Positions 46,160 to 58,736 of a stretch of DNA of 64,000 bases are shown piece by piece. This stretch comes from an uncultured Clostridia bacterium (lineage in GTDB: Bacteria; Bacillota; Clostridia; Christensenellales; CAG-314): positions 29,544 to 93,543 of the forward strand of contig CANRHP010000002.1 of assembly GCA_947630455.1 (NCBI GenBank), read 5' to 3'. The notes below the pieces were generated by a model. The model saw only the letters and a program-made list of their open reading frames with translations. It did not search any database and was not told the origin of the DNA. Position 1 is the first letter of the stretch. Every line of letters begins with the position of its first letter. The translations under genes and the position numbers were made by a program.

Positions 46160-48169
46160 TTATGCAAGCGGCAGCGTTGCGGAAAAGATCGTAAAATTAT
46201 CCTTGCGTTCATACGTCAATTCCCCATGCATTGTCTTGATCGCGTTCTTTGCCAAAAACAGACCCAGTCCGGAGTTGTTTTCGGAGGGATTGCCCGAAAC
46301 GAACGGGGCAAAGACATTTTTATCGGTAGTAATTCCCTTCCCGTCGTCTATGACGTCGAGGCGGCATACCCCCTTGTGTTTGACGGCGGACACAGTTAAA
46401 TGCGAACAAAACGCGTGTTCGATCGCGTTCATTACCAAATTGAGTATCACGCTTTCCAAAGCAATTTTTTTTGCATATACGTTTAATATTTCGGGCAGCA
46501 CAACCGTCAGAACAATTCCGTTTGCTTCGCAGTCGGGGCGCAAATCGTTTGTTACGCTTTGCACGATCTGACTCAAGTTTATCACCTCGGACTGTTCCGC
46601 CACGTAGTTTTGCTTGTTGTACTTTCCCAAATCGGCAAAGTCTTTTTTCAGCTCCGCATTTTTTTGTAACAAGTAATCCACCTTTGAGACCAATTCGGGC
46701 TCGGATAGATTTTGCCGCAGATCCGTCAGAGAATCGTTCATCCCGACGACGGTCCTTTTCATATCATGGCTCACATACAGCAAGATCTTATCCCGTTCGG
46801 CAATAACATTCTGCAGGCTTTGAGTCTGCCGCTCGACCTCCTGTTCCAGATTGGTCGTAAGATAGCGATTGTGTACTTCTGCAGAGGCAAATTCGCGAAG
46901 TCCCAACACAAGCGTGATCCCCAGCGCCCCATAACACAACCAAAACGCCGGAGAAAACATGATCAATGGGATCGGCTGAGTCGCAAACAGAGCCATAGCG
47001 GTCAAAACGCCTGCGATTATCGAATTGAGGCGCAGTCCCAAGGGCTTATTTTGATATACGTCCCATATGGTAGACGAATAGATGACAACAATGCAGGCAA
47101 ACACCAGGACGATATAGGTATAGCAAACAGCGGTATAAGCGGCTATGCTCGTGCAAAAGGGGGACAGAAATGCCGATACGGTTGCGGTAATCGCGGCAAT
47201 GCTTGTCAAGTACAAAACCGGGACTTTTCCTATTTTTTTCGGAAGATACAGCGTCGCGGCAAAGAGAATAAATCCAACCGAAAAACGTCGCATTCCAAGC
47301 AGAAAGTACGGAACGGTCGTATAACCGAACAACATATACGTTGAAAACAGCACCGAAAAAATTCCTGCGGCAAACAGTAGCTGCGGAATGAAGGAAAAAG
47401 ACCGTTTCAAAATACATATCAAAAGAAACAACAGCAGCGTAACCGCTCCGAGGATAGCGCCGATCAAAAGGACGGAGCGGTTCTCATTGACGGCTCTGTG
47501 TACTGCCGCGTCTTCCCCGATCAAAACGGGTCCCATAAATCCCACAAAGTTATCGTTGTCCGCCTCGTAATGGATTGTCACTCTGCATTCTCTTGAATAT
47601 TTACCTTCAGAGGAAATAGGTATATCTATAAATAAAGGCTCCGTTGCCGTTTGGTGCAGGACGGTGTCGTCAAATTCAGATGGCGATGAGTAATTGATAT
47701 AGTAGTTGATATTGTATCTGTCTATCGCGCCTACGTATTCTTCATTTTCGTACTGCACAAACACGCTGCATGCGGCATATACGGGAGGGATGTACATTGT
47801 CAGGTGCCAATTTCCGTCCGGCTGCAAAAGCCGGTTCAAGCTTTCCTTTTCTGCCCATTCTTCCGTCGTCAAAGTGTCTATAAAAAATTGGTACGTTCCC
47901 CGTTTCGCAGGCTTTGCGCCCTCGTTTTCATTGGATACGACATTGTTAAGCTCCGCAAATTTATTGGGAAGATAGTTGAACGCCGTCATTTCCATCACGC
48001 CCTTCACGTCTGCAATGGAAACGGTGTTGACCGAAACGCCCGCAAGCTCTTTTGTGCGTACGGGCGTCTCCGCTATGGCGTTCTGCCCCGTAAACAGCAA
48101 AACGAGTGAAAATGTCAGGCAGATAACAAACAAACCTACCAACACAAGCACGTTTCCTACTTTTTTCAT
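46160..48169 (-). CDS. Sensor histidine kinase with extracellular domain and 7-TM module (7TMR-DISM type)
   Basis: 669 aa. A signal/anchor and a ~230-aa ectodomain are followed by seven hydrophobic helices. HisKA 'LLYVSHDMKRTVVGM'. HATPase 'IDDGKGI...NSGLGLFLAKNAI'. Confidence 0.88.
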   Translation of the reverse strand: MKKVGNVLVLVGLFVICLTFSLVLLFTGQNAIAETPVRTKELAGVSVNTVSIADVKGVMEMTAFNYLPNKFAELNNVVSNENEGAKPAKRGTYQFFIDTLTTEEWAEKESLNRLLQPDGNWHLTMYIPPVYAACSVFVQYENEEYVGAIDRYNINYYINYSSPSEFDDTVLHQTATEPLFIDIPISSEGKYSRECRVTIHYEADNDNFVGFMGPVLIGEDAAVHRAVNENRSVLLIGAILGAVTLLLFLLICILKRSFSFIPQLLFAAGIFSVLFSTYMLFGYTTVPYFLLGMRRFSVGFILFAATLYLPKKIGKVPVLYLTSIAAITATVSAFLSPFCTSIAAYTAVCYTYIVLVFACIVVIYSSTIWDVYQNKPLGLRLNSIIAGVLTAMALFATQPIPLIMFSPAFWLCYGALGITLVLGLREFASAEVHNRYLTTNLEQEVERQTQSLQNVIAERDKILLYVSHDMKRTVVGMNDSLTDLRQNLSEPELVSKVDYLLQKNAELKKDFADLGKYNKQNYVAEQSEVINLSQIVQSVTNDLRPDCEANGIVLTVVLPEILNVYAKKIALESVILNLVMNAIEHAFCSHLTVSAVKHKGVCRLDVIDDGKGITTDKNVFAPFVSGNPSENNSGLGLFLAKNAIKTMHGELTYERKDNFTIFSATLPLA

Positions 48170-48852
48170 AATACCTCTCCTGTAAAGCAGTAACCCCTGT
48201 TAAATTCGGTGCGGATTATATCGCTTTCGGGCATAGCGGCTTTTAGTTTTCTGCGCAGCGATGACAAATGCGTTCGTATAGTTGTGGTGTGCAGACTTGG
48301 CGCACACCAAATTTTTTCATAAATTTCGTCCGAAGTAAAATATTGACCGCGGTTTTTTACCAAAAAGAATAAAATGTTGAATTCGGACGGTGTAAGCGAA
48401 ATGGGCATATTTTTATATTTTACGGTACGTGTGTTGGCGTCCACGGAAAAATCCCCGAAAACTTCTATTGCGTCCGCTTTGGGTAAAAGCCGCATTGCGA
48501 TATGCGTTTCCAAAAGGCGCATAGAACAGGGCTTTATCACGTAATCGGTCGCACCCGAGGTAAGCCCCGTGAGAATGGTGTCCTCACTGTCCAAAGAGGA
48601 CAAAATAATTACAGGCGGCAATTCGGGAAATGCGCTGAAAAGCTCTATCCCCATGCTGTTTTTGAGTATCAGATCCAACACAACAGCGTCGAAGTCCCCC
48701 TTCTCTGTCAAAAGCTCGACGGCTTCTTCCACGTCAGACGCTGTATAAACGGCATTTGTGGGAGAAAAATATGCGATCATTTCCTTTTTTAATTTTTCAT
48801 CGTCCTCAATAAACAGCAGATTTCTTTCGTAAACAGTATAATTCATATGCAC
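48166..48852 (-). CDS. OmpR-family response regulator
   Basis: 228 aa. Receiver domain ('LLFIEDDEKL', phospho-Asp 'AVVLDLIL', 'DYVIKPC'). Winged-helix output domain ('LTPSEFNILFFL...IRTHLSSLRRKL'). It overlaps the kinase gene by 4 nt. Confidence 0.92.
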   Translation of the reverse strand: MHMNYTVYERNLLFIEDDEKLKKEMIAYFSPTNAVYTASDVEEAVELLTEKGDFDAVVLDLILKNSMGIELFSAFPELPPVIILSSLDSEDTILTGLTSGATDYVIKPCSMRLLETHIAMRLLPKADAIEVFGDFSVDANTRTVKYKNMPISLTPSEFNILFFLVKNRGQYFTSDEIYEKIWCAPSLHTTTIRTHLSSLRRKLKAAMPESDIIRTEFNRGYCFTGEVL

Positions 48853-48974
48853 TTCCGTTTTCTTATAGTTTTATTATATCAAACAAATAAAATACACGCA
48901 AGCCGGATAACTGTTTCACCGTTAAATAATCTCGTAAAGAATTGTTAAGGTTGCGTTTGGAGCGGGTTTTAATA

Positions 48975-49003
48975 TTGCCTCAAAAATGAATTTACGCTAA
49001 AAT
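48975..49003 (+). promoter_or_regulatory. Candidate promoter of the giant surface-protein gene
   Basis: TTGCCT (48975-48980), a 17-nt spacer, then TAAAAT (48998-49003). This placement puts the G18 tract in the 5' UTR. Confidence 0.45.
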
Positions 49004-49046
49004 ATTTCATGAAAAAACACTCGGAACAAAACCGAAGAAAAAAAAT

Positions 49047-49064
49047 GGGGGGGGGGGGGGGGGG
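49047..49064 (+). repeat. Homopolymeric G18 tract (preceded by A8) 6 nt upstream of the start codon
   Basis: Counted directly: 18 consecutive G at 49047-49064 and 8 consecutive A at 49038-49045. The sequence reads 'aaaaaaaaTGGGGGGGGGGGGGGGGGGcgctttATG'. Confidence 0.95.
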
Positions 49065-49070
49065 CGCTTT

Positions 49071-52000
49071 ATGACCACAAAGAAAAGATATTTCACAGCA
49101 ATACTCATTGCTGTTGCAGCATTGTGCCTTTTGGCGGGCACATTGTTTTTTAATACTGCCAACGCGAGCAACAGTGCAAGCGGAACAAATACCGCAGATG
49201 AATGGAAAGGTGCGCAAACCACAGGCAATCTCATTTATTACACCGATAACAATTCCAGCGGTAAGTCTAAAAAAACTTTGGCAGATTTTGGCTGGCAAGG
49301 TCTTGGCAATGTTGACCCATATGCGTTACGCTACAATCACAGTGATGTTGGTTTAGGAAATTCGAGTTTTGGCTGGGTCATACATGCAAACACGAATGAT
49401 GGTCTTGGTAACGATAATTACACCGGCGGTGTGTGGTACACGATCACGCTTTCCGAAGCAGACAGGGTCAAAGCCAATAAGGGGGATTTGACTATTTCTG
49501 CATCCTCTGTAAACTGGCACCAAACATCGTCAGGTATTCACGCTCGTTTACAGCTGATTTTTTACGATGCCGCTGGTTCGGAAATTGCGTCAAAAGATCA
49601 TAGCCGGTTTCTTAATATCTTCCAAAATACAAATCCGGTAAATCTATCTATATCCGATTACAAAGTTCCTGCGAACACGGCGACGATACGTTACTATATT
49701 TCCAATAATAATAGCTTAGCAGGAAAGCCCTCTATTGGTGCTTTGACATGTACTCTTACCGACAAAACAGCGCCTGCGGTTACGGGTAATGTTTTTTTGG
49801 AAAAGACGAACGTTGCGGACAGCAACAATAATATTGTCGTTGCGGGCAACACGATAAAATACAGCGTAGAATTTAACGAAAAGGTAAGCATTACTGCCAA
49901 CGGCACGGCGAATATCACGTTAAACGGAAACGCTTTTGTTTCTTCAAGCACCGCTGAACTCGTTACCGAAAACGGTAAAAGCAGGGTTTGTTACACGTTC
50001 ACATTGCCCGACAAAAACGAAAACGGCGAGGTAAAATTTTCCTCCGTTTCGGGGCTTGCCGTCAAAGACGAGGCGGGCAATGCCTATACTTACAATAACA
50101 GCGGCCTTTCCGCCCCGACCTTGCAATATTACAGGGCAATGACCGTCTCTTCGAGTTTGACACATCTGAACTTTTCGGGCGGAGGAAAGGCGACGTACAA
50201 TACCAACTATTCGGCAGCTTTGTCGACGGTGCGCGGCTATAACCTGCCGAATTCCATCACCGTCAAAGTGGGCGGCAGTACGCTTGCGCAGGGCAGTGAC
50301 TATACCTACAACTCCGGGACGGGCGCGATCACGATTACCGGCTCCAAGATCACGGACGATATTGTCATCAATGCGTCGGGCGTTGCAAAGAAAATTGACG
50401 TCACATTGAACCCGCAAAGCGGTTTCGGCGGAACGGACAAAGTGACGGCGACTTTCGACAGCGCAATGCCTGGCGTGGTGGTGCCGACGCGCACGGGCTA
50501 CACCTTTGACGGTTACTACACGCAAGCCGACGGCGAAGGCGTGAGATATTACGACGCAAAAGGACAAAGCGTTAAAAGTTGCGATTTCGTAGATGCGTTG
50601 ACCCTGTATGCGCATTGGGTCGCACATACCTATACGATAACATTTAACAAAAACAAACCCGGAAACGCAAGTGAGGATGTGCAGGGAACGATGTCCGATG
50701 TTCCGCGCACCTACGACGACGGTAGCAAAGCTCTGCCGAAAAACGGCTTTACGCTGACGGGCTGGACCTTCCTGGGCTGGGCAACGAACGCACTAGGCGG
50801 ATCGGTTACTTATGATAACGAAAAAGCGGTACAGAATCTGACGGATAGAGATGGCGATACGTTCACACTTTACGCCGTATGGAGGGCAAATACCTACACA
50901 GTAAACTATCATTCCAACAAGCCTTCGGGCGCGAGCAGCGAGGTCGTTGGTGCGACCAACGAGTCATCGCACACCTACGACGTGCAGAGAGCGCTTACTA
51001 CTAACGGCTTTTCGCTCACTGGTTGGACCTTCCAAGGCTGGGCAGCGAGCGCCGAAAGCAGCAATATTGTGCATAGAAACGACGCGTCGGTCAAAAACCT
51101 TACGGCAGTGGACGGCGCCACAATCCACCTTTACGCCGTATGGACCGCAAATACATATACAATAAGGTTTAACGAAAACAAACCTAAAAATGCAAGTGCG
51201 AATGTGCAAGGAAGCATTTCCGATGTACCGCGCGTTTACGACGACGGCAGCAAAGCTTTGCCGCACAACGACTTTACGCTGCATGGCTGGACCTTCCAGG
51301 GTTGGACAACAAGTGTAGCAAGCGACAGCGTAACTTACACAAACGGTCAACCGGTGCAGAATTTGACGGAGAAAAATGACGAAACAGTCACGCTTTACGC
51401 CGTATGGAAGGCAAATTCGCACACGATCACCCTCAACGCAATGGGCGGTACCAACGCGGGCGCGCTCACGGCAACCTTTGACAGCGCGCTTCCCGGTATC
51501 ACTCTTCCCGAGCGACACGGCTACAATTTCCGCGGTTATTTCAATTCGGAATCGGGCGGCGAGCAATATTACAAGTCGGATGGTACTGCGGTTGACAATA
51601 AAACCTTTACGATAGATGACAACATTACGCTCTATGCTCAGTGGACGCCCATCACTTATACGATCCGTCTGTACAGCGAGGGCAAATATATCAAGGATAT
51701 TACAGGCGTCGTATTCGGCGTGCTCAATTTGCCCGCGGCGGAAACGTGCGGTCTCTCACGGAAGAATTTTGATTTTGTCGGTTGGAACATATATGATGAA
51801 CAGAACTGGGCAATGTACCATGCCGACACCCTCTATACTACCGGACTTACCGGCGAGCAGGGCGGAGTTGTGGTGCTGTATGCGGCATGGCAGGAAAAGC
51901 CTATCCACTCTTTGTTCTACGACGCAAACGGAGGCTTCGGAGCCCCTGCAACAGAACAGCTGCACGAGGAGGAAGAGATCACTCTTTCGGATGTCCTTCC

Positions 52001-55000
52001 CGCCAAAGACGACCACACCTTTGTGGGCTGGGCAGTGACGGCGGAGGCAACAGAGGCGAAATATTCCCGCGGCGATAAGTTTACCATGGGCAGCGCTGCC
52101 GTAACCTTGTATGCTGTGTGGAAGCACAATCCGTCCTTTACATACAATGCCAACGAGGGCACCTTTAACTACAACGTTGCGACAACTTATCCTGCGCCGG
52201 AGTCGTTGATTAAGATTACGGAAATGCAGCCCGTTCGTACCGGATATGAATTTATCGGTTGGGCTGCAGACAAAGACGCCGAAAAGGCGGATTATAACAG
52301 CGGCGACAGCTTTACAATGCACGACGAAGATATCGTTCTTTATGCCGTATGGAAACGAAATGATTTTACCGTTTTCAAAAATATAGCGGATGGTTACGGC
52401 GTTTCGGGGCTTAAGGACAGCTATTCCTACGGCGATGACCTCAAATTTACCGTTAGCGGCGAATATCCCAAGGTGTATATCAACGGCACGCTTGTTTCTC
52501 TCGACGAAGATGGATACTATTCGTTCAAGGTCACCGGAAATATCTCCGTCACCGTTGTCGATGTTTCGTCGCTTGTTCTACTGTATTCGGCGAACGGCGG
52601 CGAGGACGCTCCGACGGACGAGACTATTTATTCCATGGGCAAAGAGGCAACCGTTTCGGAAATCGCTCCCGTGCGTTTGGGCTATACGTTCTGCGGTTGG
52701 TCCGACAACAAAAACGCCGAAGCGGCAAACTACAATGCGAAAGACAGTCTTACTTTTTCGGATAAGGACATGACCCTGTACGCGGTATGGCGCGCCAACT
52801 CTTATACGGTCACCTACAACGCGGCGGGCTGCGCAGGCACGATGCCGAGCAATGTTTATACTTACGGGACCATCGGTACCCTTTCGGAAAATGCGTTTGA
52901 AAGGCAAGGCTTTATCTTTGTCGGTTGGGCGCTTTCGGAGGGCGGAGAATGTCTGTTTGCAGACGGTGACGAGGTTTTGAATCTTTCGGTCAACGACGGC
53001 GACGAAGTCACACTCTATGCTGTCTGGGAACAGCTGAAAACCTTGATCACGTTTGATTCGAACGGCGGCGGCGGTGGAAGTGCAAATCTTTCGGTAGGTT
53101 ACGGCGAAACTCTTCCCGCAAGCGGGTATATGGCTCCCGTACGCAGAGGCTATACCTTCGCCGGCTATTATACGCAAAAAGGCGGCAATGGAGATAAGTT
53201 GTTCGATGAGAATATGTGCCCCATAAATGATGCGGCAAGCAATTGGCACAGATCCGAACAGTACCTCACGCTCTATGCCTATTGGATCCCCACACCGGAA
53301 ACGATCGAGGACACAATCGACACGGTTCAAGACAATCTCAACAAGGCGACAGAGGAGCTTCAATCGGCAATCGACTCAAACCAGACGGATATAAAGGGAA
53401 AAATTTCAGCGTTGGATTCGGCATATCAAGCGGCGGACGAGCTTTTGCGTTCGGAGTTAACGTCGACAGACGATGCACTGGAGGCTAAAATAGCCGCTCT
53501 CGAAAAAAAGATGGAAGCTGCGGATTCCACATTGCAGTCGGCGATCGACGCGGTACAAATAAAATTGGAACAAGCTGCAAAGGATCTTCAAGCAGCAATT
53601 GATGCAAATGAGAAGGATATAGAGGCAAAGGTTGCGGCGCTGGATGCGGCGTATCAAGCGGCGGACGAGCTTCTTCGCTCGGAAATGATGGCGGCAGACA
53701 CTATGATTGACGCCAAAATAGATGCTCTCGAACAAGCAATGCACAATTTGGATTCCACATTGCAGTCGGCGATCGACGCTGTACAAAGCAATTTGGATAA
53801 GGCGGCAAAGGATCTGCAAGCTACAATCGACGCAAACGAGACGGATATCGAGGCAAAGTTCTCTGCGCTGGATGCAGCGTATCAATTGGCAGACAAGCTT
53901 CTTCGCTCGGATATGACGACGGCAGACGATGCACTTGACGCCAAAATAGCCGCTCTCGAACAAGCAATGAAAGGTGTGGATTCCGCATTGCAGTCGGCAA
54001 TAGACGCCGTACAAAGCAATTTGGACAAGGCTGCAAAGAATCTTCAGGCTACAATCGACGCAAATGAGACGGATATCGAGGCAAAGTTCTCTGCGTTGGA
54101 TGCAGCGTATCAATTGGCAGACAAGCTTCTTCGCTCGGATATGACGACGGCAGACGATGCGCTTGACGCCAAAATAGCCGCTCTCGAAAAAGCAATGAAA
54201 AACGTGGATTCCGCATTGCAGTCGGCAATAGACGCCGTACAAAGCAATTTGGACAAGGCGGCAAAGGATCTGCAAGCTACAATTGATGCAAACGAGACGG
54301 ATATAGAAGCAAAGGTTGCGGCTCTGGATGCAGCATATCAATTGGCAAACAAGCTTCTTCGCTCGGATATGACGGCGGCAGACGATGCGCTTGACGCCAA
54401 AATAGCCGCTCTCGAACAAGCAATGAAAAGTGTGGATTCCGCGTTGCAGTCGGCGATAGACGCCGTACAGAGCAATTTGGACAAGGCGGCAAAGGATCTG
54501 CAAGCTACAATTGATGCAAACGAGACGGATATAGAAGCAAAGGTTGCGGCGCTGGATGCAGCGTATCAAGCGGCAGACACACTCCTTCGTTCGGATATGA
54601 CGGCGGCAGATGATTTGCTTGACGCCAAAATAGAGGCGCTTAAAAAAGCAATGAAAAATTTGGATTTCGCATTGCAAGCGTCGATCGATAACGTACAAAG
54701 AAATTTGGACAGGGCGGCAAAGAAGCTTCAGGCGGCAATTGATGCAAACGAAACGGATATCGAGGCAAAGGTCGCGGCGCTGGAGGCAGCGTACAAAGCG
54801 GCGGACGCACTCATCAACAGCGACATTGCAGGGTTAAAAGCACAGGATAGCGTGCTTGCGCAAAGCATTTCCGCACTCGATTCCGCGTATAAGGCGGCGG
54901 ATGAGGCTCTCTGGAAGGGAATCAGGCAAGTAGAGCAGAAACATGATGCATTGGAGCAGCAAAGCGAGAAAACCGCACTTATTTATATGATCATCAATAT

Positions 55001-55079
55001 TGTCCTCGGTTGCATTGCAGTAGCATTGATTGTCACTCTGGTTGTAAAAGTGGTCAAGAAAAAGAATTCGCAGCAGTAA
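49071..55079 (+). CDS. 2002-aa cell-surface protein: signal peptide, novel N-terminal region, about a dozen Listeria-Bacteroides (InlB B-repeat/Flg_new) modules, coiled-coil repeat stalk, C-terminal TM anchor
   Basis: Signal peptide 'AVAALCLLAGTLFFNTANA|SN'. Repeated 'GYTFxGWxxxxxG...Y.....V....D.TLYAVW' modules. Seven ~76-aa helical repeats. C-terminal 'LIYMIINIVLGCIAVALIVTLVVKVVKKKN'. Confidence 0.9.
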   Translation: MTTKKRYFTAILIAVAALCLLAGTLFFNTANASNSASGTNTADEWKGAQTTGNLIYYTDNNSSGKSKKTLADFGWQGLGNVDPYALRYNHSDVGLGNSSFGWVIHANTNDGLGNDNYTGGVWYTITLSEADRVKANKGDLTISASSVNWHQTSSGIHARLQLIFYDAAGSEIASKDHSRFLNIFQNTNPVNLSISDYKVPANTATIRYYISNNNSLAGKPSIGALTCTLTDKTAPAVTGNVFLEKTNVADSNNNIVVAGNTIKYSVEFNEKVSITANGTANITLNGNAFVSSSTAELVTENGKSRVCYTFTLPDKNENGEVKFSSVSGLAVKDEAGNAYTYNNSGLSAPTLQYYRAMTVSSSLTHLNFSGGGKATYNTNYSAALSTVRGYNLPNSITVKVGGSTLAQGSDYTYNSGTGAITITGSKITDDIVINASGVAKKIDVTLNPQSGFGGTDKVTATFDSAMPGVVVPTRTGYTFDGYYTQADGEGVRYYDAKGQSVKSCDFVDALTLYAHWVAHTYTITFNKNKPGNASEDVQGTMSDVPRTYDDGSKALPKNGFTLTGWTFLGWATNALGGSVTYDNEKAVQNLTDRDGDTFTLYAVWRANTYTVNYHSNKPSGASSEVVGATNESSHTYDVQRALTTNGFSLTGWTFQGWAASAESSNIVHRNDASVKNLTAVDGATIHLYAVWTANTYTIRFNENKPKNASANVQGSISDVPRVYDDGSKALPHNDFTLHGWTFQGWTTSVASDSVTYTNGQPVQNLTEKNDETVTLYAVWKANSHTITLNAMGGTNAGALTATFDSALPGITLPERHGYNFRGYFNSESGGEQYYKSDGTAVDNKTFTIDDNITLYAQWTPITYTIRLYSEGKYIKDITGVVFGVLNLPAAETCGLSRKNFDFVGWNIYDEQNWAMYHADTLYTTGLTGEQGGVVVLYAAWQEKPIHSLFYDANGGFGAPATEQLHEEEEITLSDVLPAKDDHTFVGWAVTAEATEAKYSRGDKFTMGSAAVTLYAVWKHNPSFTYNANEGTFNYNVATTYPAPESLIKITEMQPVRTGYEFIGWAADKDAEKADYNSGDSFTMHDEDIVLYAVWKRNDFTVFKNIADGYGVSGLKDSYSYGDDLKFTVSGEYPKVYINGTLVSLDEDGYYSFKVTGNISVTVVDVSSLVLLYSANGGEDAPTDETIYSMGKEATVSEIAPVRLGYTFCGWSDNKNAEAANYNAKDSLTFSDKDMTLYAVWRANSYTVTYNAAGCAGTMPSNVYTYGTIGTLSENAFERQGFIFVGWALSEGGECLFADGDEVLNLSVNDGDEVTLYAVWEQLKTLITFDSNGGGGGSANLSVGYGETLPASGYMAPVRRGYTFAGYYTQKGGNGDKLFDENMCPINDAASNWHRSEQYLTLYAYWIPTPETIEDTIDTVQDNLNKATEELQSAIDSNQTDIKGKISALDSAYQAADELLRSELTSTDDALEAKIAALEKKMEAADSTLQSAIDAVQIKLEQAAKDLQAAIDANEKDIEAKVAALDAAYQAADELLRSEMMAADTMIDAKIDALEQAMHNLDSTLQSAIDAVQSNLDKAAKDLQATIDANETDIEAKFSALDAAYQLADKLLRSDMTTADDALDAKIAALEQAMKGVDSALQSAIDAVQSNLDKAAKNLQATIDANETDIEAKFSALDAAYQLADKLLRSDMTTADDALDAKIAALEKAMKNVDSALQSAIDAVQSNLDKAAKDLQATIDANETDIEAKVAALDAAYQLANKLLRSDMTAADDALDAKIAALEQAMKSVDSALQSAIDAVQSNLDKAAKDLQATIDANETDIEAKVAALDAAYQAADTLLRSDMTAADDLLDAKIEALKKAMKNLDFALQASIDNVQRNLDRAAKKLQAAIDANETDIEAKVAALEAAYKAADALINSDIAGLKAQDSVLAQSISALDSAYKAADEALWKGIRQVEQKHDALEQQSEKTALIYMIINIVLGCIAVALIVTLVVKVVKKKNSQQ
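53300..54930 (+). repeat. Tandem array of seven 228-bp (76-aa) repeats inside the surface-protein gene
   Basis: The marker 'gattcc' recurs at 53523, 53751, 53979, 54207 and 54435, and as 'gatttc' at 54663, giving an exact 228-nt period. The central units are near-identical at DNA level. The outer units are degenerate. Confidence 0.92.
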
Positions 55080-55092
55080 GGAGGTGCATATT

Positions 55093-55821
55093 ATGTGGGC
55101 ATTTCTGCTCAATATTTTCGCAATCGAGGCACAGTATATATGCACTGCCGCATTGATATTGATATGTACTCTTGCCGGCGCACATCTTTATTTGATGCAT
55201 ATACGAAAAACCGACGCGCCTCATGCAGCGGATACGAAGCTGTCGGAACAAAATAAGCAGGCTGAGGAAGAACACTCCGAGAGTAAGAACGGCAGTGGAG
55301 AAATCGCCGCCCTGCCATTTGCCGACAAGGAGCTTGCTCGTAGCGAAATTGAATCAGTAAAATTGTCTGATTATCCGTACGAAGCTGCAACAAACCTTTT
55401 GGAACGCGGGCTTATTAAGTTGGAAAACGAGGAAGAGTCGTCAACCGACTCGGACAGTCCTATCGGGGCAGATTTTGAAAAACGCGAACACGTGTTTGTG
55501 ATGGAAGCTCGAAATTTGATTTCCGATGAGGTCGCAGTATCCTTAATTGAAGAAACGGAAGAAACAGTATTATCAACACCGAAAGCAGTTATCAATATCG
55601 ACGCGCTTTCCGAAAACTATCAGGCAAACGAGACGGTCACGTTGAAATCCCTGAAAGAAAAGAAACTTATTGCAACTTCTGTAAATTACGTAAAGGTGCT
55701 TGCGCGCGGTGTTCTTGACAAGCCCTTGATAGTAAAAATGCCGGATTTTTCTGTTGACGCGGTAAAAATGATACTATTGACAGGCGGTACAGTGATTAAA
55801 TTGAAAACCAAAAGTAAATAG
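55093..55821 (+). CDS. Membrane-anchored protein with acidic linker and ribosomal uL15-like C-terminal domain
   Basis: 242 aa from ATG 55093, with an AGGAGG RBS 8 nt upstream. One N-terminal TM helix ('AQYICTAALILICTLAGAHLYLM'). The C-terminus 'INIDALSENYQANETVTLKSLKEKKLIATSVNYVKVLARGVLDKPLIVKMPDFSVDAVKMILLTGGTVIKL' aligns by eye with the C-terminal half of bacterial L15 ('..[37 protein letters not shown]'). Confidence 0.65.
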   Translation: MWAFLLNIFAIEAQYICTAALILICTLAGAHLYLMHIRKTDAPHAADTKLSEQNKQAEEEHSESKNGSGEIAALPFADKELARSEIESVKLSDYPYEAATNLLERGLIKLENEEESSTDSDSPIGADFEKREHVFVMEARNLISDEVAVSLIEETEETVLSTPKAVINIDALSENYQANETVTLKSLKEKKLIATSVNYVKVLARGVLDKPLIVKMPDFSVDAVKMILLTGGTVIKLKTKSK

Positions 55822-57422: not shown

Positions 57423-58736
57423 ATGAAAAAAACTTTTACGATAGCATTGGCGGCAATGTGCGTACTTACCATATTGGGTACGTTGTGTTCCTGTGGGATG
57501 GGCGGAGCCGCTTTGTTGGACCAGCCTGCAAGCGCAGAAGCATTGCGTTGGGATGAAAGACAAAGTGAGACCACAAAAAATATTCTTTCTGCGTCCAACA
57601 GTTTTGCGGCTGCCTTTTCCGACGCGGTGTACAAGCAGTTTGGTGAAAAAGGCAGCTTCGCTGTTGCGCCCGTTTCCGTCTATATGGCGTTGTCACTTGC
57701 CGCGGAGTGCGCTTCGGGTGAAACGCGCAATGAGTTGCTCAATGCGTTGGGACTTGATTATGAGGCGCTGCAAAGCAGCTTTGCCACGCTGTACGGCTCG
57801 CTTATCGCAGAGTACAAGGATGACAACAACAAAACAGCCGGCATGTTGGAGTTGTCCAATTCCGTTTGGATGGACGATCGCACGCATGTAAAGGACGCAT
57901 GCATCGACAAGCTTGCAAATAGATATTTTTGCTATCCCTATCGGACGGATTTCGACGGCAACAACAAAGCAGCCAATCGCGCGATACGTGAGTTTGTAAA
58001 GCAGCATACCCACGGACTTATCGATCAGGGTTTCGATTTATCCGAAGATGTTTTGTTTACTCTCATCAACGCGCTGTATCTCAAGGATATATGGAACGAC
58101 GGCGGCAGGGATCTGGGCTTTGCTTCGGGACAGTATTCCTTTGTCAACGGCGACGGCAGCGTCACGTCCACTCCGTTGCTCAGCGGTTACTATTATCGCG
58201 GCAGGGTAGTGGCAACGGAAGCATATCGTCACTTTTTCACTCAAACGGAGCACGGGTACACGCTCAAATTCATTGTTCCCAACGACGGCTACACGATAGC
58301 TGATGTATTCGATGCCGAGACATTGTGCGAAGTCAACGGGATCGACGACTACAAAGCCGACGATGAGGAAAATAAAATTCATTACAGTACGCGCTGCCTG
58401 TTCCCTGAATTCGAAACCAAGTTCGACGAGAACTTAAATGATGTACTGCAAAACAAATTCGGCGTGCACAGGTTGTTTGATCCCTACTCATGCGAATTTT
58501 CCAATCTGACAAACGATGCCGTTTATTGTTGCAAGGTGCAGCACGTCACCGATTTGAAAGTGGATAAGACTGGTATCGAAGGTGTTGCTGTGACAATAAT
58601 GGCAAACGCAGAGTCAGCAGGACCTGACGATTGGGCTGACGTATATGAGGATTTTGTCGTGGATCGCGCGTTTGGCTTTGTACTTACGGACAGATACGGT
58701 ACGATTATTTTCAGCGGTGTTGTGGACAGCTTGTAA
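57423..58736 (+). CDS. Serpin-family protease inhibitor, lipoprotein
   Basis: 437 aa. Lipobox 'LGTLCSC|GMG'. Serpin N-terminal motif 'FAVAPVSVYMALSLAAECASGETRNELLNALG'. Hinge/RCL 'GIEGVAVTIMANAESAGPDDW' and 'FVVDRAFGFVL'. Confidence 0.85.
   Translation: MKKTFTIALAAMCVLTILGTLCSCGMGGAALLDQPASAEALRWDERQSETTKNILSASNSFAAAFSDAVYKQFGEKGSFAVAPVSVYMALSLAAECASGETRNELLNALGLDYEALQSSFATLYGSLIAEYKDDNNKTAGMLELSNSVWMDDRTHVKDACIDKLANRYFCYPYRTDFDGNNKAANRAIREFVKQHTHGLIDQGFDLSEDVLFTLINALYLKDIWNDGGRDLGFASGQYSFVNGDGSVTSTPLLSGYYYRGRVVATEAYRHFFTQTEHGYTLKFIVPNDGYTIADVFDAETLCEVNGIDDYKADDEENKIHYSTRCLFPEFETKFDENLNDVLQNKFGVHRLFDPYSCEFSNLTNDAVYCCKVQHVTDLKVDKTGIEGVAVTIMANAESAGPDDWADVYEDFVVDRAFGFVLTDRYGTIIFSGVVDSL

What the first reader, a model, noticed from the sequence alone, without database searches (positions are those of the whole stretch)
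49038..49074. A8-T-G18 homopolymer at the ribosome-binding position of a 2002-aa surface-protein gene, creating a length-sensitive mini-uORF
Seen in sequence: 18 consecutive G (49047-49064) end 6 nt before the ATG (49071). An ATG at 49045 uses the first G of the tract. In the present state it reads ATG-(GGG)5-GGC-GCT-TTA-TGA (M-G6-A-L-stop). Its TGA (49072-49074) overlaps the main start codon as ATGA, which is the geometry of termination-reinitiation coupling. One extra G (G19) would fuse the uORF in frame to the main ORF (MGGGGGGRF-MTTKK...). One fewer G would make a long out-of-frame overlapping uORF. With the candidate promoter at 48975-49003, the tract lies in the 5' UTR. There it is the only SD-like purine run, and its 3' end stays a fixed 6 nt from the ATG. 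Established knowledge: long homopolymers undergo slipped-strand mispairing and drive phase variation of surface proteins, and G-runs can form G-quadruplexes. Inference: this is a candidate translational phase-variation switch for the adhesin-like protein and the gene after it.
Basis: partly seen in the sequence, partly recalled or inferred. Interest (0 to 1): 0.65.

Follow-up and report, generated by a model that had tools for sequence, protein, structure and literature searches.

The report
Poly-G run replacing a ribosome-binding site
An uncultured gut Clostridia bacterium has 18 consecutive G's where its relatives have a normal ribosome-binding site in front of a giant surface-protein gene; this is probably a slippage-prone expression dial of a known general kind, but length variation has not been shown.

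Summary
A8-T-G18 lies at 49038-49064, 6 nt before the ATG of a 2002-aa surface-protein gene, and no other G or C run in the 64 kb exceeds 5. The tract is real: three assemblies carry it, including a strain about 2% diverged. Comparing 15 homologous loci places it downstream of a conserved regulator box and -10 element, so it is in the 5' UTR at the Shine-Dalgarno (SD) position. Every relative has a normal SD there, and the closest sister species has AAAGGGGG (G5). G18 is therefore a lineage-specific expansion of the SD's own G's. It is predicted to bind the anti-SD as well as canonical sites, in about 10 registers, so a one-base change should not alter SD spacing. However, the uORF has no SD, its ATG is missing from a near-identical assembly, and no relative has it. 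The downstream gene has its own strong SD. My best reading is a hypermutable SD tract that grades translation, possibly through an RNA G-quadruplex. No tract-length polymorphism was seen. Related species carry G8-G9 tracts at other control points of the same module. I rate this a new variant of a known kind, of moderate interest.

The parts
49047..49064 (+). G18 homopolymer at the Shine-Dalgarno position; its 3' end is 6 nt from the ATG
   Evidence: It aligns to the G5 of the SD AAAGGGGG in the sister species L018 and to AAGGAG-type SDs in the other homologs. The predicted anti-SD duplex is -12.4 kcal/mol in 10 registers.
49038..49046 (+). A8 run plus a single T; the last A, the T and the first G form the upstream ATG (49045-49047)
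   Evidence: The T is present in the window and in L001 and absent in L002. L004 and L009 have A9 directly before GGAGA.
49045..49074 (+). Mini-uORF M-G6-A-L-stop whose TGA overlaps the main ATG; probably incidental
   Evidence: It has no SD, is not conserved.
49065..49070 (+). Fixed 6-nt spacer CGCTTT between the tract and the start codon
48975..49003 (+). Probable promoter of the surface-protein gene (TTGCCT-17-TAAAAT), putting the transcription start near 49010 and giving a leader of about 60 nt
   Evidence: One search gives a consensus match, which alone is not above chance. In one search the -10 element lies 57-70 nt after the start of the aligned segment (8 nt upstream of the regulator box) in every box-bearing locus, and at offset 69 in the window, as in L007 and L015 (68-69 in L004, L008 and L009).
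48933..48952 (.). Conserved direct-repeat box CGTAAAGAATTGTTAAGGTT between the two divergent promoters; probable binding site of the adjacent OmpR/PhoB-type response regulator
   Evidence: TAAAGAnTTGTTAAG occurs once in the window. It is found in 8 of the 12 homologous loci searched, with near variants in more.
48873..48901 (-). Probable promoter of the regulator-kinase operon (TTGCGT-17-TATAAT on the minus strand)
   Evidence: a TTGCAT-like hexamer (TTGCGT in the window, TTGCAA in L006), 17 nt, then TATAAT (TATACT in L007), conserved in all 12 loci examined.
48166..48846 (-). OmpR/PhoB-family response regulator, transcribed divergently
   Evidence: It is 73-88% identical in more than 150 relatives.
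46160..48169 (-). Sensor histidine kinase; its start overlaps the regulator's stop
49071..55079 (+). 2002-aa surface protein: signal or N-terminal membrane segment, a unique N-terminal domain, 9 Listeria-Bacteroides (Flg_new) repeats, coiled-coil repeats and a C-terminal membrane anchor
   Evidence: No solved structure matches the N-terminal domain.
53341..54806 (+). In-frame 228-bp tandem repeat, 6.4 copies at 85% identity, encoding the coiled-coil part; a second element that could vary in length
55093..55821 (+). Downstream 242-aa gene (N-terminal hydrophobic stretch, likely a membrane segment (my reading of the translation), C-terminal uL15-like domain) with its own SD AAGGAGGTG and an 8-nt spacer

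Best explanation
The G18 tract is a lineage-specific expansion of the G's of the gene's own Shine-Dalgarno sequence. It sits in the roughly 60-nt leader of a giant surface-protein gene that is probably controlled by the adjacent two-component system. It still serves as the SD, because a G run pairs with the CCUCC anti-SD through G-C and G-U pairs. Its 3' end is fixed 6 nt from the ATG, so a one-base change cannot switch the gene through SD spacing. A pure 18-nt homopolymer should slip frequently during replication, and probably during transcription too. A population should therefore hold a spread of tract lengths. I propose that tract length grades translation of the surface protein like a rheostat rather than an on/off switch. 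The most likely route is an RNA G-quadruplex that sequesters the SD. This structure becomes possible at 11 G's or more and is predicted to be more stable at 15 and at 19. Non-productive upstream anti-SD registers may add to the effect. Shown here: the position, the origin by expansion, the SD competence (by calculation), the conserved promoter and regulator box, and persistence in a diverged strain. Inferred: hypermutability, any effect on expression, and its direction.
For: The position in the leader is set by the conserved box and -10 element. Every homolog has a canonical SD 5-12 nt before the start. The sister species L018 aligns base for base and has GAAGAA-A-GGGGG-TCCTTTT-GTG where the window has A8-T-G18-CGCTTT-ATG. 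The anti-SD duplex of the tract is -12.4 kcal/mol, against -6 to -12.7 for the homologs. Genes in the window generally use GGAGG-type SDs. ViennaRNA with quadruplex terms predicts two tiers at G11-14, three at G15-18 and four at G19 or more. The minimum free energy is -56.5 against -21.1 kcal/mol at G18, and the structure consumes the SD. The tract is uninterrupted in the window, in L002 and in L001. L001 is about 2% diverged, yet its 214 nt of intergenic sequence are identical to the window. This argues that the tract is maintained rather than decaying. Two of three metagenome contigs break at or just before the tract. Other species carry G8-G9 tracts at other control points of the same module. 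In L007 the tract is in the spacer of the conserved regulator promoter, in L005 it is inside the homolog's coding sequence and out of frame, and in L011 it is at the end of the regulator gene. The gene is the kind usually placed under such control, a large repeat-rich surface protein whose sequence diverges fast (48% identity where the regulator keeps 87%). Precedents exist for repeat tracts in leaders or upstream regions of adhesin genes (PMC7302503, PMC12721329, PMC11898584, PMC7098570, PMC2715451). There is also precedent for RNA quadruplexes inhibiting bacterial translation (PMC10801317).
Against: No length polymorphism was seen. The two assemblies that span the tract both read G18 and are essentially the same strain. 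The species is rare, so only three extra contigs were found, and the JGI metagenome scans found no contig of this species (none; only two distant homologs). Contig breaks at low coverage (about 2.3-2.5x) also have trivial explanations. A tract that remains a good SD at any length above about 8 has no obvious step-wise readout. The quadruplex prediction is a thermodynamic model only, and a quadruplex in an E. coli 5' UTR has been reported to enhance translation (PMC11087576), so even the sign of the effect is unknown. The anti-SD sequence was assumed, because no 16S gene lies in the window.
Confidence: 0.45

Rival explanations
1. Neutral or mildly harmful runaway slippage. The G5 SD expanded by chance and is tolerated because any G run of about 5 or more at a fixed distance still works as an SD. 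It has no regulatory role.
For: SD function is predicted to be independent of length. No length variation was observed. Only this one species has the expansion among 15 homologous loci. The surface gene is accessory and is absent from several close relatives.
Against: The tract is pure and long in a strain about 2% diverged, whereas unselected long tracts are expected to contract or acquire interruptions (general knowledge of repeat dynamics). G tracts recur at other control points of the same module in other species. An 18-G run at a ribosome-binding site is predicted to fold very stably, so it is unlikely to be without effect.
Confidence: 0.3
2. An effect at the transcript level, as for the G(n) tract upstream of uspA1 in Moraxella catarrhalis. 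The G-rich non-template strand or the nascent poly-G RNA would form a G-quadruplex, R-loop or hybrid quadruplex, or would cause polymerase pausing or slippage. Tract length would then set mRNA level rather than translation.
For: The tract lies about +37 to +54 from the inferred transcription start, on the non-template strand. The uspA1 G(n) tract lies upstream of the ORF and alters transcription in a graded way (PMC7302503). The intergenic homopolymer in S. pyogenes changes transcript levels (PMC7098570).
Against: Nothing in the sequence tests this. The tract is outside the promoter's -35/-10 spacer. Its overlap with the SD makes a translational effect the more direct expectation.
Confidence: 0.12
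3. The ATG at 49045 starts a mini-uORF whose frame, set by the number of G's, decides between termination-reinitiation at ATGA, an in-frame N-terminal extension, and an overlapping inhibitory uORF.
For: The geometry and the three-periodic frame outcomes are correct. It is the only proposed mechanism that is sensitive to single-base steps. The T is present in the window and in the diverged strain L001.
Against: There is no SD before the uORF ATG, in an organism whose genes use strong SDs. The ATG lies upstream of the SD-like tract, so 30S subunits bound there would be placed downstream of it. The T is absent in L002. No uORF exists in any homolog. Transcriptional slippage on an 18-nt run would blur the frame at the RNA level (inference from established knowledge).
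Confidence: 0.08
4. A sequencing or assembly artefact, for example poly-G from two-colour Illumina chemistry.
For: Long G runs are a known artefact class. Contigs L001 and L003 end at or near the tract, and coverage in L002 and L003 is about 2.3-2.5x.
Against: The same tract has the same flanks in the window, in L002 and in a 2%-diverged strain from a different accession series. Both flanks are syntenic with homologs, and the tract aligns to the sister species' G5 SD. Removing it would leave the gene without an SD.
Confidence: 0.03

Closest known systems
Moraxella catarrhalis uspA1 G(n) tract (PMC7302503)
   Same: A poly-G tract upstream of the ORF of a large adhesin gene. It gives graded rather than on/off expression and depends on sequence context.
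   Different: That tract is G9-G12 and is reported to act on transcription. It is not the SD itself, the host is a Gram-negative pathogen, and length variation and phenotype have been shown experimentally.
Mycobacterium tuberculosis espR 5'-UTR G homopolymer (PMC11898584)
   Same: A G homopolymer in a 5' UTR whose one-base insertion changes leader folding, ribosome-binding-site accessibility and translation.
   Different: [quoted passage not shown] It controls a regulator gene, not a surface protein.
Haemophilus influenzae hmw1A 5'-UTR heptamer repeats with RNase III (PMC12721329)
   Same: A repeat tract transcribed as part of an adhesin leader, acting after transcription through RNA structure. 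Expression scales with repeat number.
   Different: The repeat is a 7-nt unit forming a long hairpin with a G-rich partner. No complementary partner for the G18 tract was found here.
Streptococcus pyogenes M28 Spy1336/R28-Spy1337 intergenic homopolymer (PMC7098570)
   Same: A Firmicute locus with a homopolymer between a repeat-rich surface-protein gene and a divergently transcribed regulator. That coding sequence also has large tandem repeats that vary in number.
   Different: That tract is a T run acting on transcript levels of both genes, the regulator is of a different type, and polymorphism has been documented.
Helicobacter pylori sabA: repeat tracts plus the ArsRS two-component system (PMC2715451, PMC4081817)
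   Same: An adhesin under both a two-component system and a slippage tract, with rheostat-like output.
   Different: Those tracts are in the promoter region and in the coding sequence, not at the SD.
Bifidobacterium breve pilus G tracts (PMC9187656)
   Same: A Gram-positive gut commensal in which a G tract controls a surface structure by replication slippage.
   Different: That tract is inside the gene and works as a frameshift on/off switch. The L005 homolog here resembles it more than the window does.
Promoter-spacer repeat tracts (Neisseria porA, opc and fetA type; from my own knowledge)
   Same: A homopolymer upstream of a surface-protein gene.
   Different: The window tract is about 44 nt downstream of the -10 element, so it does not fit this layout. 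The G9 in L007 does fit it, for the regulator promoter.

Membership tests
Simple-sequence-repeat contingency (phase-variable) locus | A repeat tract long enough to be hypermutable | tested here: met
   A pure G18; all other G or C runs in 64 kb are 5 or shorter. That tracts of this length are hypermutable comes from established knowledge and was not measured here.
Simple-sequence-repeat contingency (phase-variable) locus | The tract is placed where a length change alters expression (coding sequence, promoter spacer, or leader) | tested here: inconclusive
   The tract is in the leader at the SD. However, the SD spacing is fixed and SD strength does not depend on length. Only quadruplex thresholds or the uORF frame would respond to length.
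Simple-sequence-repeat contingency (phase-variable) locus | Tract-length polymorphism within or between strains | tested here: inconclusive
   The window and L002 both read G18 and differ only by the flanking T. L001 is cut after 14 G's. No further samples of the species were found.
Simple-sequence-repeat contingency (phase-variable) locus | Reversible, heritable change in expression or phenotype | not testable with these tools
   This needs cultures, reporters or read-level population data.
Simple-sequence-repeat contingency (phase-variable) locus | Association with a surface or host-interaction gene | tested here: met
   The product has a signal peptide, Flg_new repeats, coiled coil and a C-terminal membrane anchor.
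uORF-mediated translational coupling (termination-reinitiation) | A uORF with a start codon and its own ribosome-binding site | tested here: not met
   An ATG is present in the window and in L001 but absent in L002. The best anti-SD duplex upstream of it is -2.5 to -3.5 kcal/mol.
uORF-mediated translational coupling (termination-reinitiation) | The uORF stop overlaps or abuts the main start codon | tested here: met
   ATGA at 49071-49074 when n=18.
uORF-mediated translational coupling (termination-reinitiation) | Conservation of the uORF among relatives | tested here: not met
   None of the 15 homologous loci has it.
RNA G-quadruplex translational regulator | A sequence able to form at least two G-tetrads within one molecule | tested here: met
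   ViennaRNA with quadruplex terms predicts three tiers at G15-18. This is a prediction only.
RNA G-quadruplex translational regulator | Overlap with the ribosome-binding site | tested here: met
   The quadruplex uses 15 of the 18 G's that make up the only SD.
RNA G-quadruplex translational regulator | Folding in vivo and an effect on translation | not testable with these tools
   This needs K+/Li+ reverse-transcriptase stop assays, 7-deaza-G controls and reporters.
Promoter-spacer repeat-tract switch (porA/opc/fetA type) | The tract lies between the -35 and -10 hexamers | tested here: not met
   The tract begins 44 nt after the -10 element that comparison supports.

The most novel reading that the evidence does not exclude
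The tract is a hypermutable Shine-Dalgarno sequence. The ribosome-binding site itself has become a slippage tract, and its length sets how many G-quadruplex tiers form (thresholds near 11, 15 and 19 G's). That would set the translation level of a giant surface protein regulated by a two-component system. Related uncultured gut Clostridia have independently placed G tracts at other control points of the same module: the regulator promoter spacer and the coding sequence. This would make the module a recurrent contingency locus in commensal Firmicutes, a group in which slippage-based phase variation has hardly been studied.
Probability: 0.2. Interest if true: 0.65.

Novelty: new variant of a known kind. 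Interest (0 to 1): 0.42.

Why it matters
Slippage-based phase variation is well described in mucosal pathogens. It is barely charted in the strictly anaerobic Firmicutes that dominate the gut, where work so far has centred on invertible promoters. If this tract works as proposed, it would be a case in which the ribosome-binding site itself is the hypermutable element. That would tie heritable cell-to-cell variation of a large surface protein to translation initiation, and possibly to RNA quadruplex folding. It would also suggest that homopolymers, which short-read assemblies tend to break at, hide a class of contingency loci in uncultured commensals. If the tract proves to be only a tolerated expansion, it still shows that a pure G run can stand in for a Shine-Dalgarno sequence.

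Tried and rejected
1. A DNA pattern scan of JGI metagenome contigs for both flanks with a variable gap found nothing. The second scan, with the N-domain alignment, found two distant homologs only, so it gave no population data.

2. Exact-protein look-ups found no record of the 2002-aa product or of the GTG-start form of the regulator. The ATG-start form of the regulator gave three short contigs.

3. The regulator and kinase each form a single-member cluster, so no further strains are available.

4. I tested an attenuator or antiterminator idea, in which the tract would pair with the terminator-like hairpin at 49123-49152. On the full leader that hairpin forms whatever the tract length, and the tract does not pair with it. 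Similar hairpins in 3 of 13 homologs look like a by-product of signal-peptide codons. I rejected the idea.

5. The promoter-spacer model for the window tract is rejected on position.

6. Rfam found only a tRNA in the window. There is no riboswitch or leader family, and no 16S gene from which to read the true anti-SD.

7. Sequence search of solved structures with the N-domain alignment gave nothing significant.

8. Full-text searches found no published case of a repeat tract that is itself the SD. The library is open-access only, so this does not prove absence.

9. Close regulator relatives L020, L022-L024, L025 and L026 either lack the surface gene or have contigs that end too early.
Full report
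**Observation**

The window reads GAAG-A8-T-G18-CGCTTT-ATG. A8 is at 49038-49045, T at 49046, G18 at 49047-49064, and the start codon of a 2002-aa ORF (49071-55079) at 49071. The G18 is a clear outlier: the 64 kb are 47.5% G+C and no other G or C run exceeds 5. From the base composition, about 6e-7 such runs are expected by chance. The upstream ATG (49045-49047) reads M-G6-A-L-stop, and its TGA overlaps the main ATG.

**Is the tract real?**

The exact response-regulator protein next door is found on three metagenome contigs.
- L002 spans the tract. It is identical to the window from 48159 to 50585 except that the T at 49046 is missing, so it reads A8-G18.
- L001 is a different strain, with 62 differences in 3.1 kb. 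All of them lie in the kinase, the regulator or downstream, and none in the 214 nt of intergenic DNA. It reads A8-T and then 14 G's, where the contig ends.
- L003 ends 7 nt before the A8.

The tract is therefore not an artefact of one assembly, although the exact number of G's is only as good as low-coverage short-read data. The species is rare: the regulator and the kinase each form a single-member cluster. Two scans of JGI metagenomes gave no further copies.

**Genes around the tract**

The ORF encodes a surface protein. It has a signal or N-terminal membrane segment, an N-terminal domain with no Pfam or PDB match, nine Listeria-Bacteroides (Flg_new) repeats, a long coiled coil and a C-terminal membrane anchor. 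The coiled coil is built from a 228-bp tandem repeat present in 6.4 copies. An OmpR/PhoB-type response regulator and a histidine kinase are transcribed divergently upstream. The next gene downstream really starts at ATG 55093, behind its own AAGGAGGTG Shine-Dalgarno (SD) sequence. The wider context is ordinary chromosome, with PFOR, ComEC, holA and a serpin.

**Comparative anatomy**

I collected 15 homologous loci from uncultured gut Clostridia MAGs, metagenomes and Ructibacterium gallinarum.
- *Shared layout.* Most loci that keep the regulator share the same intergenic plan. A direct-repeat box TGTAAAGAnTTGTTAAGnTT (window 48933-48952) lies between two divergent promoters.
- *Surface-gene promoter.* On the surface-gene side, an extended -10 (TGnTAnAAT) follows at a conserved offset. 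It starts at position 69 of the aligned segment in the window, as in L007 and L015, and at 68-69 in L004, L008 and L009.
- *Regulator promoter.* On the regulator side, a TTGCAT-like hexamer (TTGCGT in the window, TTGCAA in L006), 17 nt and TATAAT (TATACT in L007) are present in all 12 loci examined.
It puts the transcription start near 49010, so the tract lies in a leader of about 60 nt.

Every homolog has a canonical SD 5-12 nt before the start, of the type AAGGAG, GGGAGG or AAAGGAGA. The closest relative that has the gene is L018/L019, where the regulator is 87% identical. Its leader aligns to the window at nucleotide level. Where the window has A8-T-G18-CGCTTT-ATG, it has GAAGAA-A-GGGGG-TCCTTTT-GTG. 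The G18 is therefore an expansion of the SD's own G's, by 13 G's relative to the sister species, and is confined to this lineage.

**Can the tract still act as an SD?**

I assumed a typical Firmicute 16S 3' tail, because no rRNA gene lies in the window. Nine G's then give a predicted duplex of -12.4 kcal/mol in ten equivalent registers. The homologs' SDs give -6 to -12.7. Other genes in the window mostly carry GGAGG-type SDs, with a median of -8 kcal/mol. The registers nearest the 3' end give spacings of 6-10 nt. Any tract longer than about 8 G's therefore offers the same SD at the same distance. One-base slippage cannot act through SD strength or spacing.

**The mini-uORF**

- Nothing SD-like precedes its ATG (-2.5 to -3.5 kcal/mol).
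- The ATG lies 5' of the only SD-like element, so 30S subunits bound there are positioned downstream of it.
- The T that creates the ATG is missing in L002.
- No homolog has a uORF.

In addition, an 18-nt homopolymer is expected to cause transcriptional slippage, which would scramble the frame at the RNA level (my inference). I give this model 0.08. Its one merit is that it is the only proposal with single-base sensitivity.

**What could sense tract length?**

ViennaRNA with quadruplex energies predicts no quadruplex up to G10, two tiers at G11-14, three at G15-18 and four from G19. At G18 the minimum free energy falls from -21.1 to -56.5 kcal/mol, and the structure uses up the SD. RNA quadruplexes have been reported to inhibit translation of mycobacterial PE/PPE mRNAs (PMC10801317). 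A quadruplex upstream of the ribosome-binding site in E. coli was reported to enhance translation in a size-dependent way (PMC11087576). The sign of any effect here is therefore open. Extra upstream anti-SD registers could also act as decoys. A transcript-level effect, as reported for uspA1 (PMC7302503), cannot be excluded. I looked for a partner sequence or an attenuator and found none. The terminator-like hairpin at 49123-49152 forms whatever the tract length.

**Is this a contingency locus?**

Evidence in favour:
- The tract is pure and long in a strain 2% diverged.
- The gene is a fast-evolving, repeat-rich surface protein: 48% identity where the regulator keeps 87%.
- Other lineages carry G8-G9 tracts at other control points of the same module.
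  - In L007, a G9 fills the 17-nt spacer of the conserved regulator promoter, which is the classical promoter-spacer layout.
  - In L005, an intragenic G8 throws the homolog out of frame, and G9 would restore it.
  - In L011, a G9 sits in the last codons of the regulator gene.
  - These three, together with the copies of the window's own tract in L001 and L002, are the only G or C runs of 7 or more in 112 kb of related loci.

Evidence against:
- No length polymorphism was seen.
- The two assemblies that span the tract are the same strain and agree on G18.
- Contig breaks at coverage of about 2.3-2.5x are not diagnostic.

**Verdict**

The best explanation (0.45) is a hypermutable tract derived from the SD that grades translation of the surface protein. 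The rivals are a tolerated neutral expansion (0.30), a transcript-level effect (0.12), the uORF switch (0.08) and an artefact (0.03).

The nearest known systems are repeat tracts in leaders or upstream regions of adhesin genes. They include uspA1, hmw1A, espR, sabA with ArsRS, and the S. pyogenes R28-Spy1337 intergenic homopolymer. I found no described case in the open-access library searched in which the tract is the SD itself. I therefore rate it a new variant of a known kind, with moderate interest pending read-level or reporter evidence.

Noticed in passing
L007 3817-3845 (minus strand): In a 57% G+C gut MAG whose surface protein is 47% identical, the conserved regulator-kinase promoter reads TTGCAT-17 nt-TATACT. 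Its 17-nt spacer is G9 plus TAATTTGC, which is the classical promoter-spacer phase-variation layout, here on the regulator rather than the surface gene.
   Followed up: partly
L005 4246-4253: A homolog in GCA_964317965.1 has a G8 inside the gene, followed by a stop 30 nt later. The shifted frame continues with homologous sequence, and G9 would restore it. This is either an OFF phase variant or a homopolymer sequencing error. The contig ends 58 nt further on.
   Followed up: partly
L011 3107-3115: A G9 (on the gene's strand) lies in the last codons of the response-regulator gene, 19 nt before the start of the kinase gene.
   Followed up: no
window 48933-48952, with 48873-48901 (minus strand) and 48975-49003 (plus strand): A conserved direct-repeat box TGTAAAGAnTTGTTAAGnTT sits between two conserved divergent promoters in most relatives. 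It is probably the binding site of the response regulator, which would then control both itself and the surface gene. In L020 the same box and promoter drive a STAS-domain gene instead.
   Followed up: partly
window 53341-54806: A 228-bp in-frame tandem repeat, 6.4 copies at 85% identity, encodes the coiled-coil stalk of the surface protein. Its copy number could vary.
   Followed up: no
window 49123-49152: A terminator-like hairpin (7-bp stem, then TTGTTTTTT) lies inside the signal-peptide coding region, 52 nt after the ATG. Similar structures occur at +51 to +73 in 3 of 13 homologs. It is probably a by-product of Ala/Leu/Phe codons, and it does not interact with the G tract in folding predictions.
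   Followed up: partly
window 55093-55821: The downstream 242-aa protein has an N-terminal hydrophobic stretch, probably a membrane segment (my reading of the translation), with a C-terminal domain resembling ribosomal protein uL15 (Pfam 1.6e-11, below the NCBIfam cut-off). This is an odd combination of unknown role.
   Followed up: no
L004 5254-5277: The orthologous surface gene is split into 751-aa and 1499-aa ORFs by a frameshift that is not at a homopolymer. It may be a pseudogene or an assembly error.
   Followed up: no
L018 1769-2037: The sister species has a leader of about 270 nt in front of the regulator gene. It contains CCCCCCGCG and CGCGGGGGGGG, which could form a long hairpin. The window has no such insert, and the gene caller extended the regulator to a TTG start just after the G8.
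   Followed up: no
(window 48166-48846 against 49071-50650): The response regulator is 73-88% identical across more than 150 relatives. The neighbouring surface protein's N-terminal region is only 38-48% identical, and the gene is missing from several close relatives. It looks like a fast-evolving accessory gene beside a conserved regulator.
   Followed up: partly
window 57423-58736: A serpin-family gene (Pfam 8.3e-38) lies 2.3 kb downstream of the surface-protein gene.
   Followed up: no
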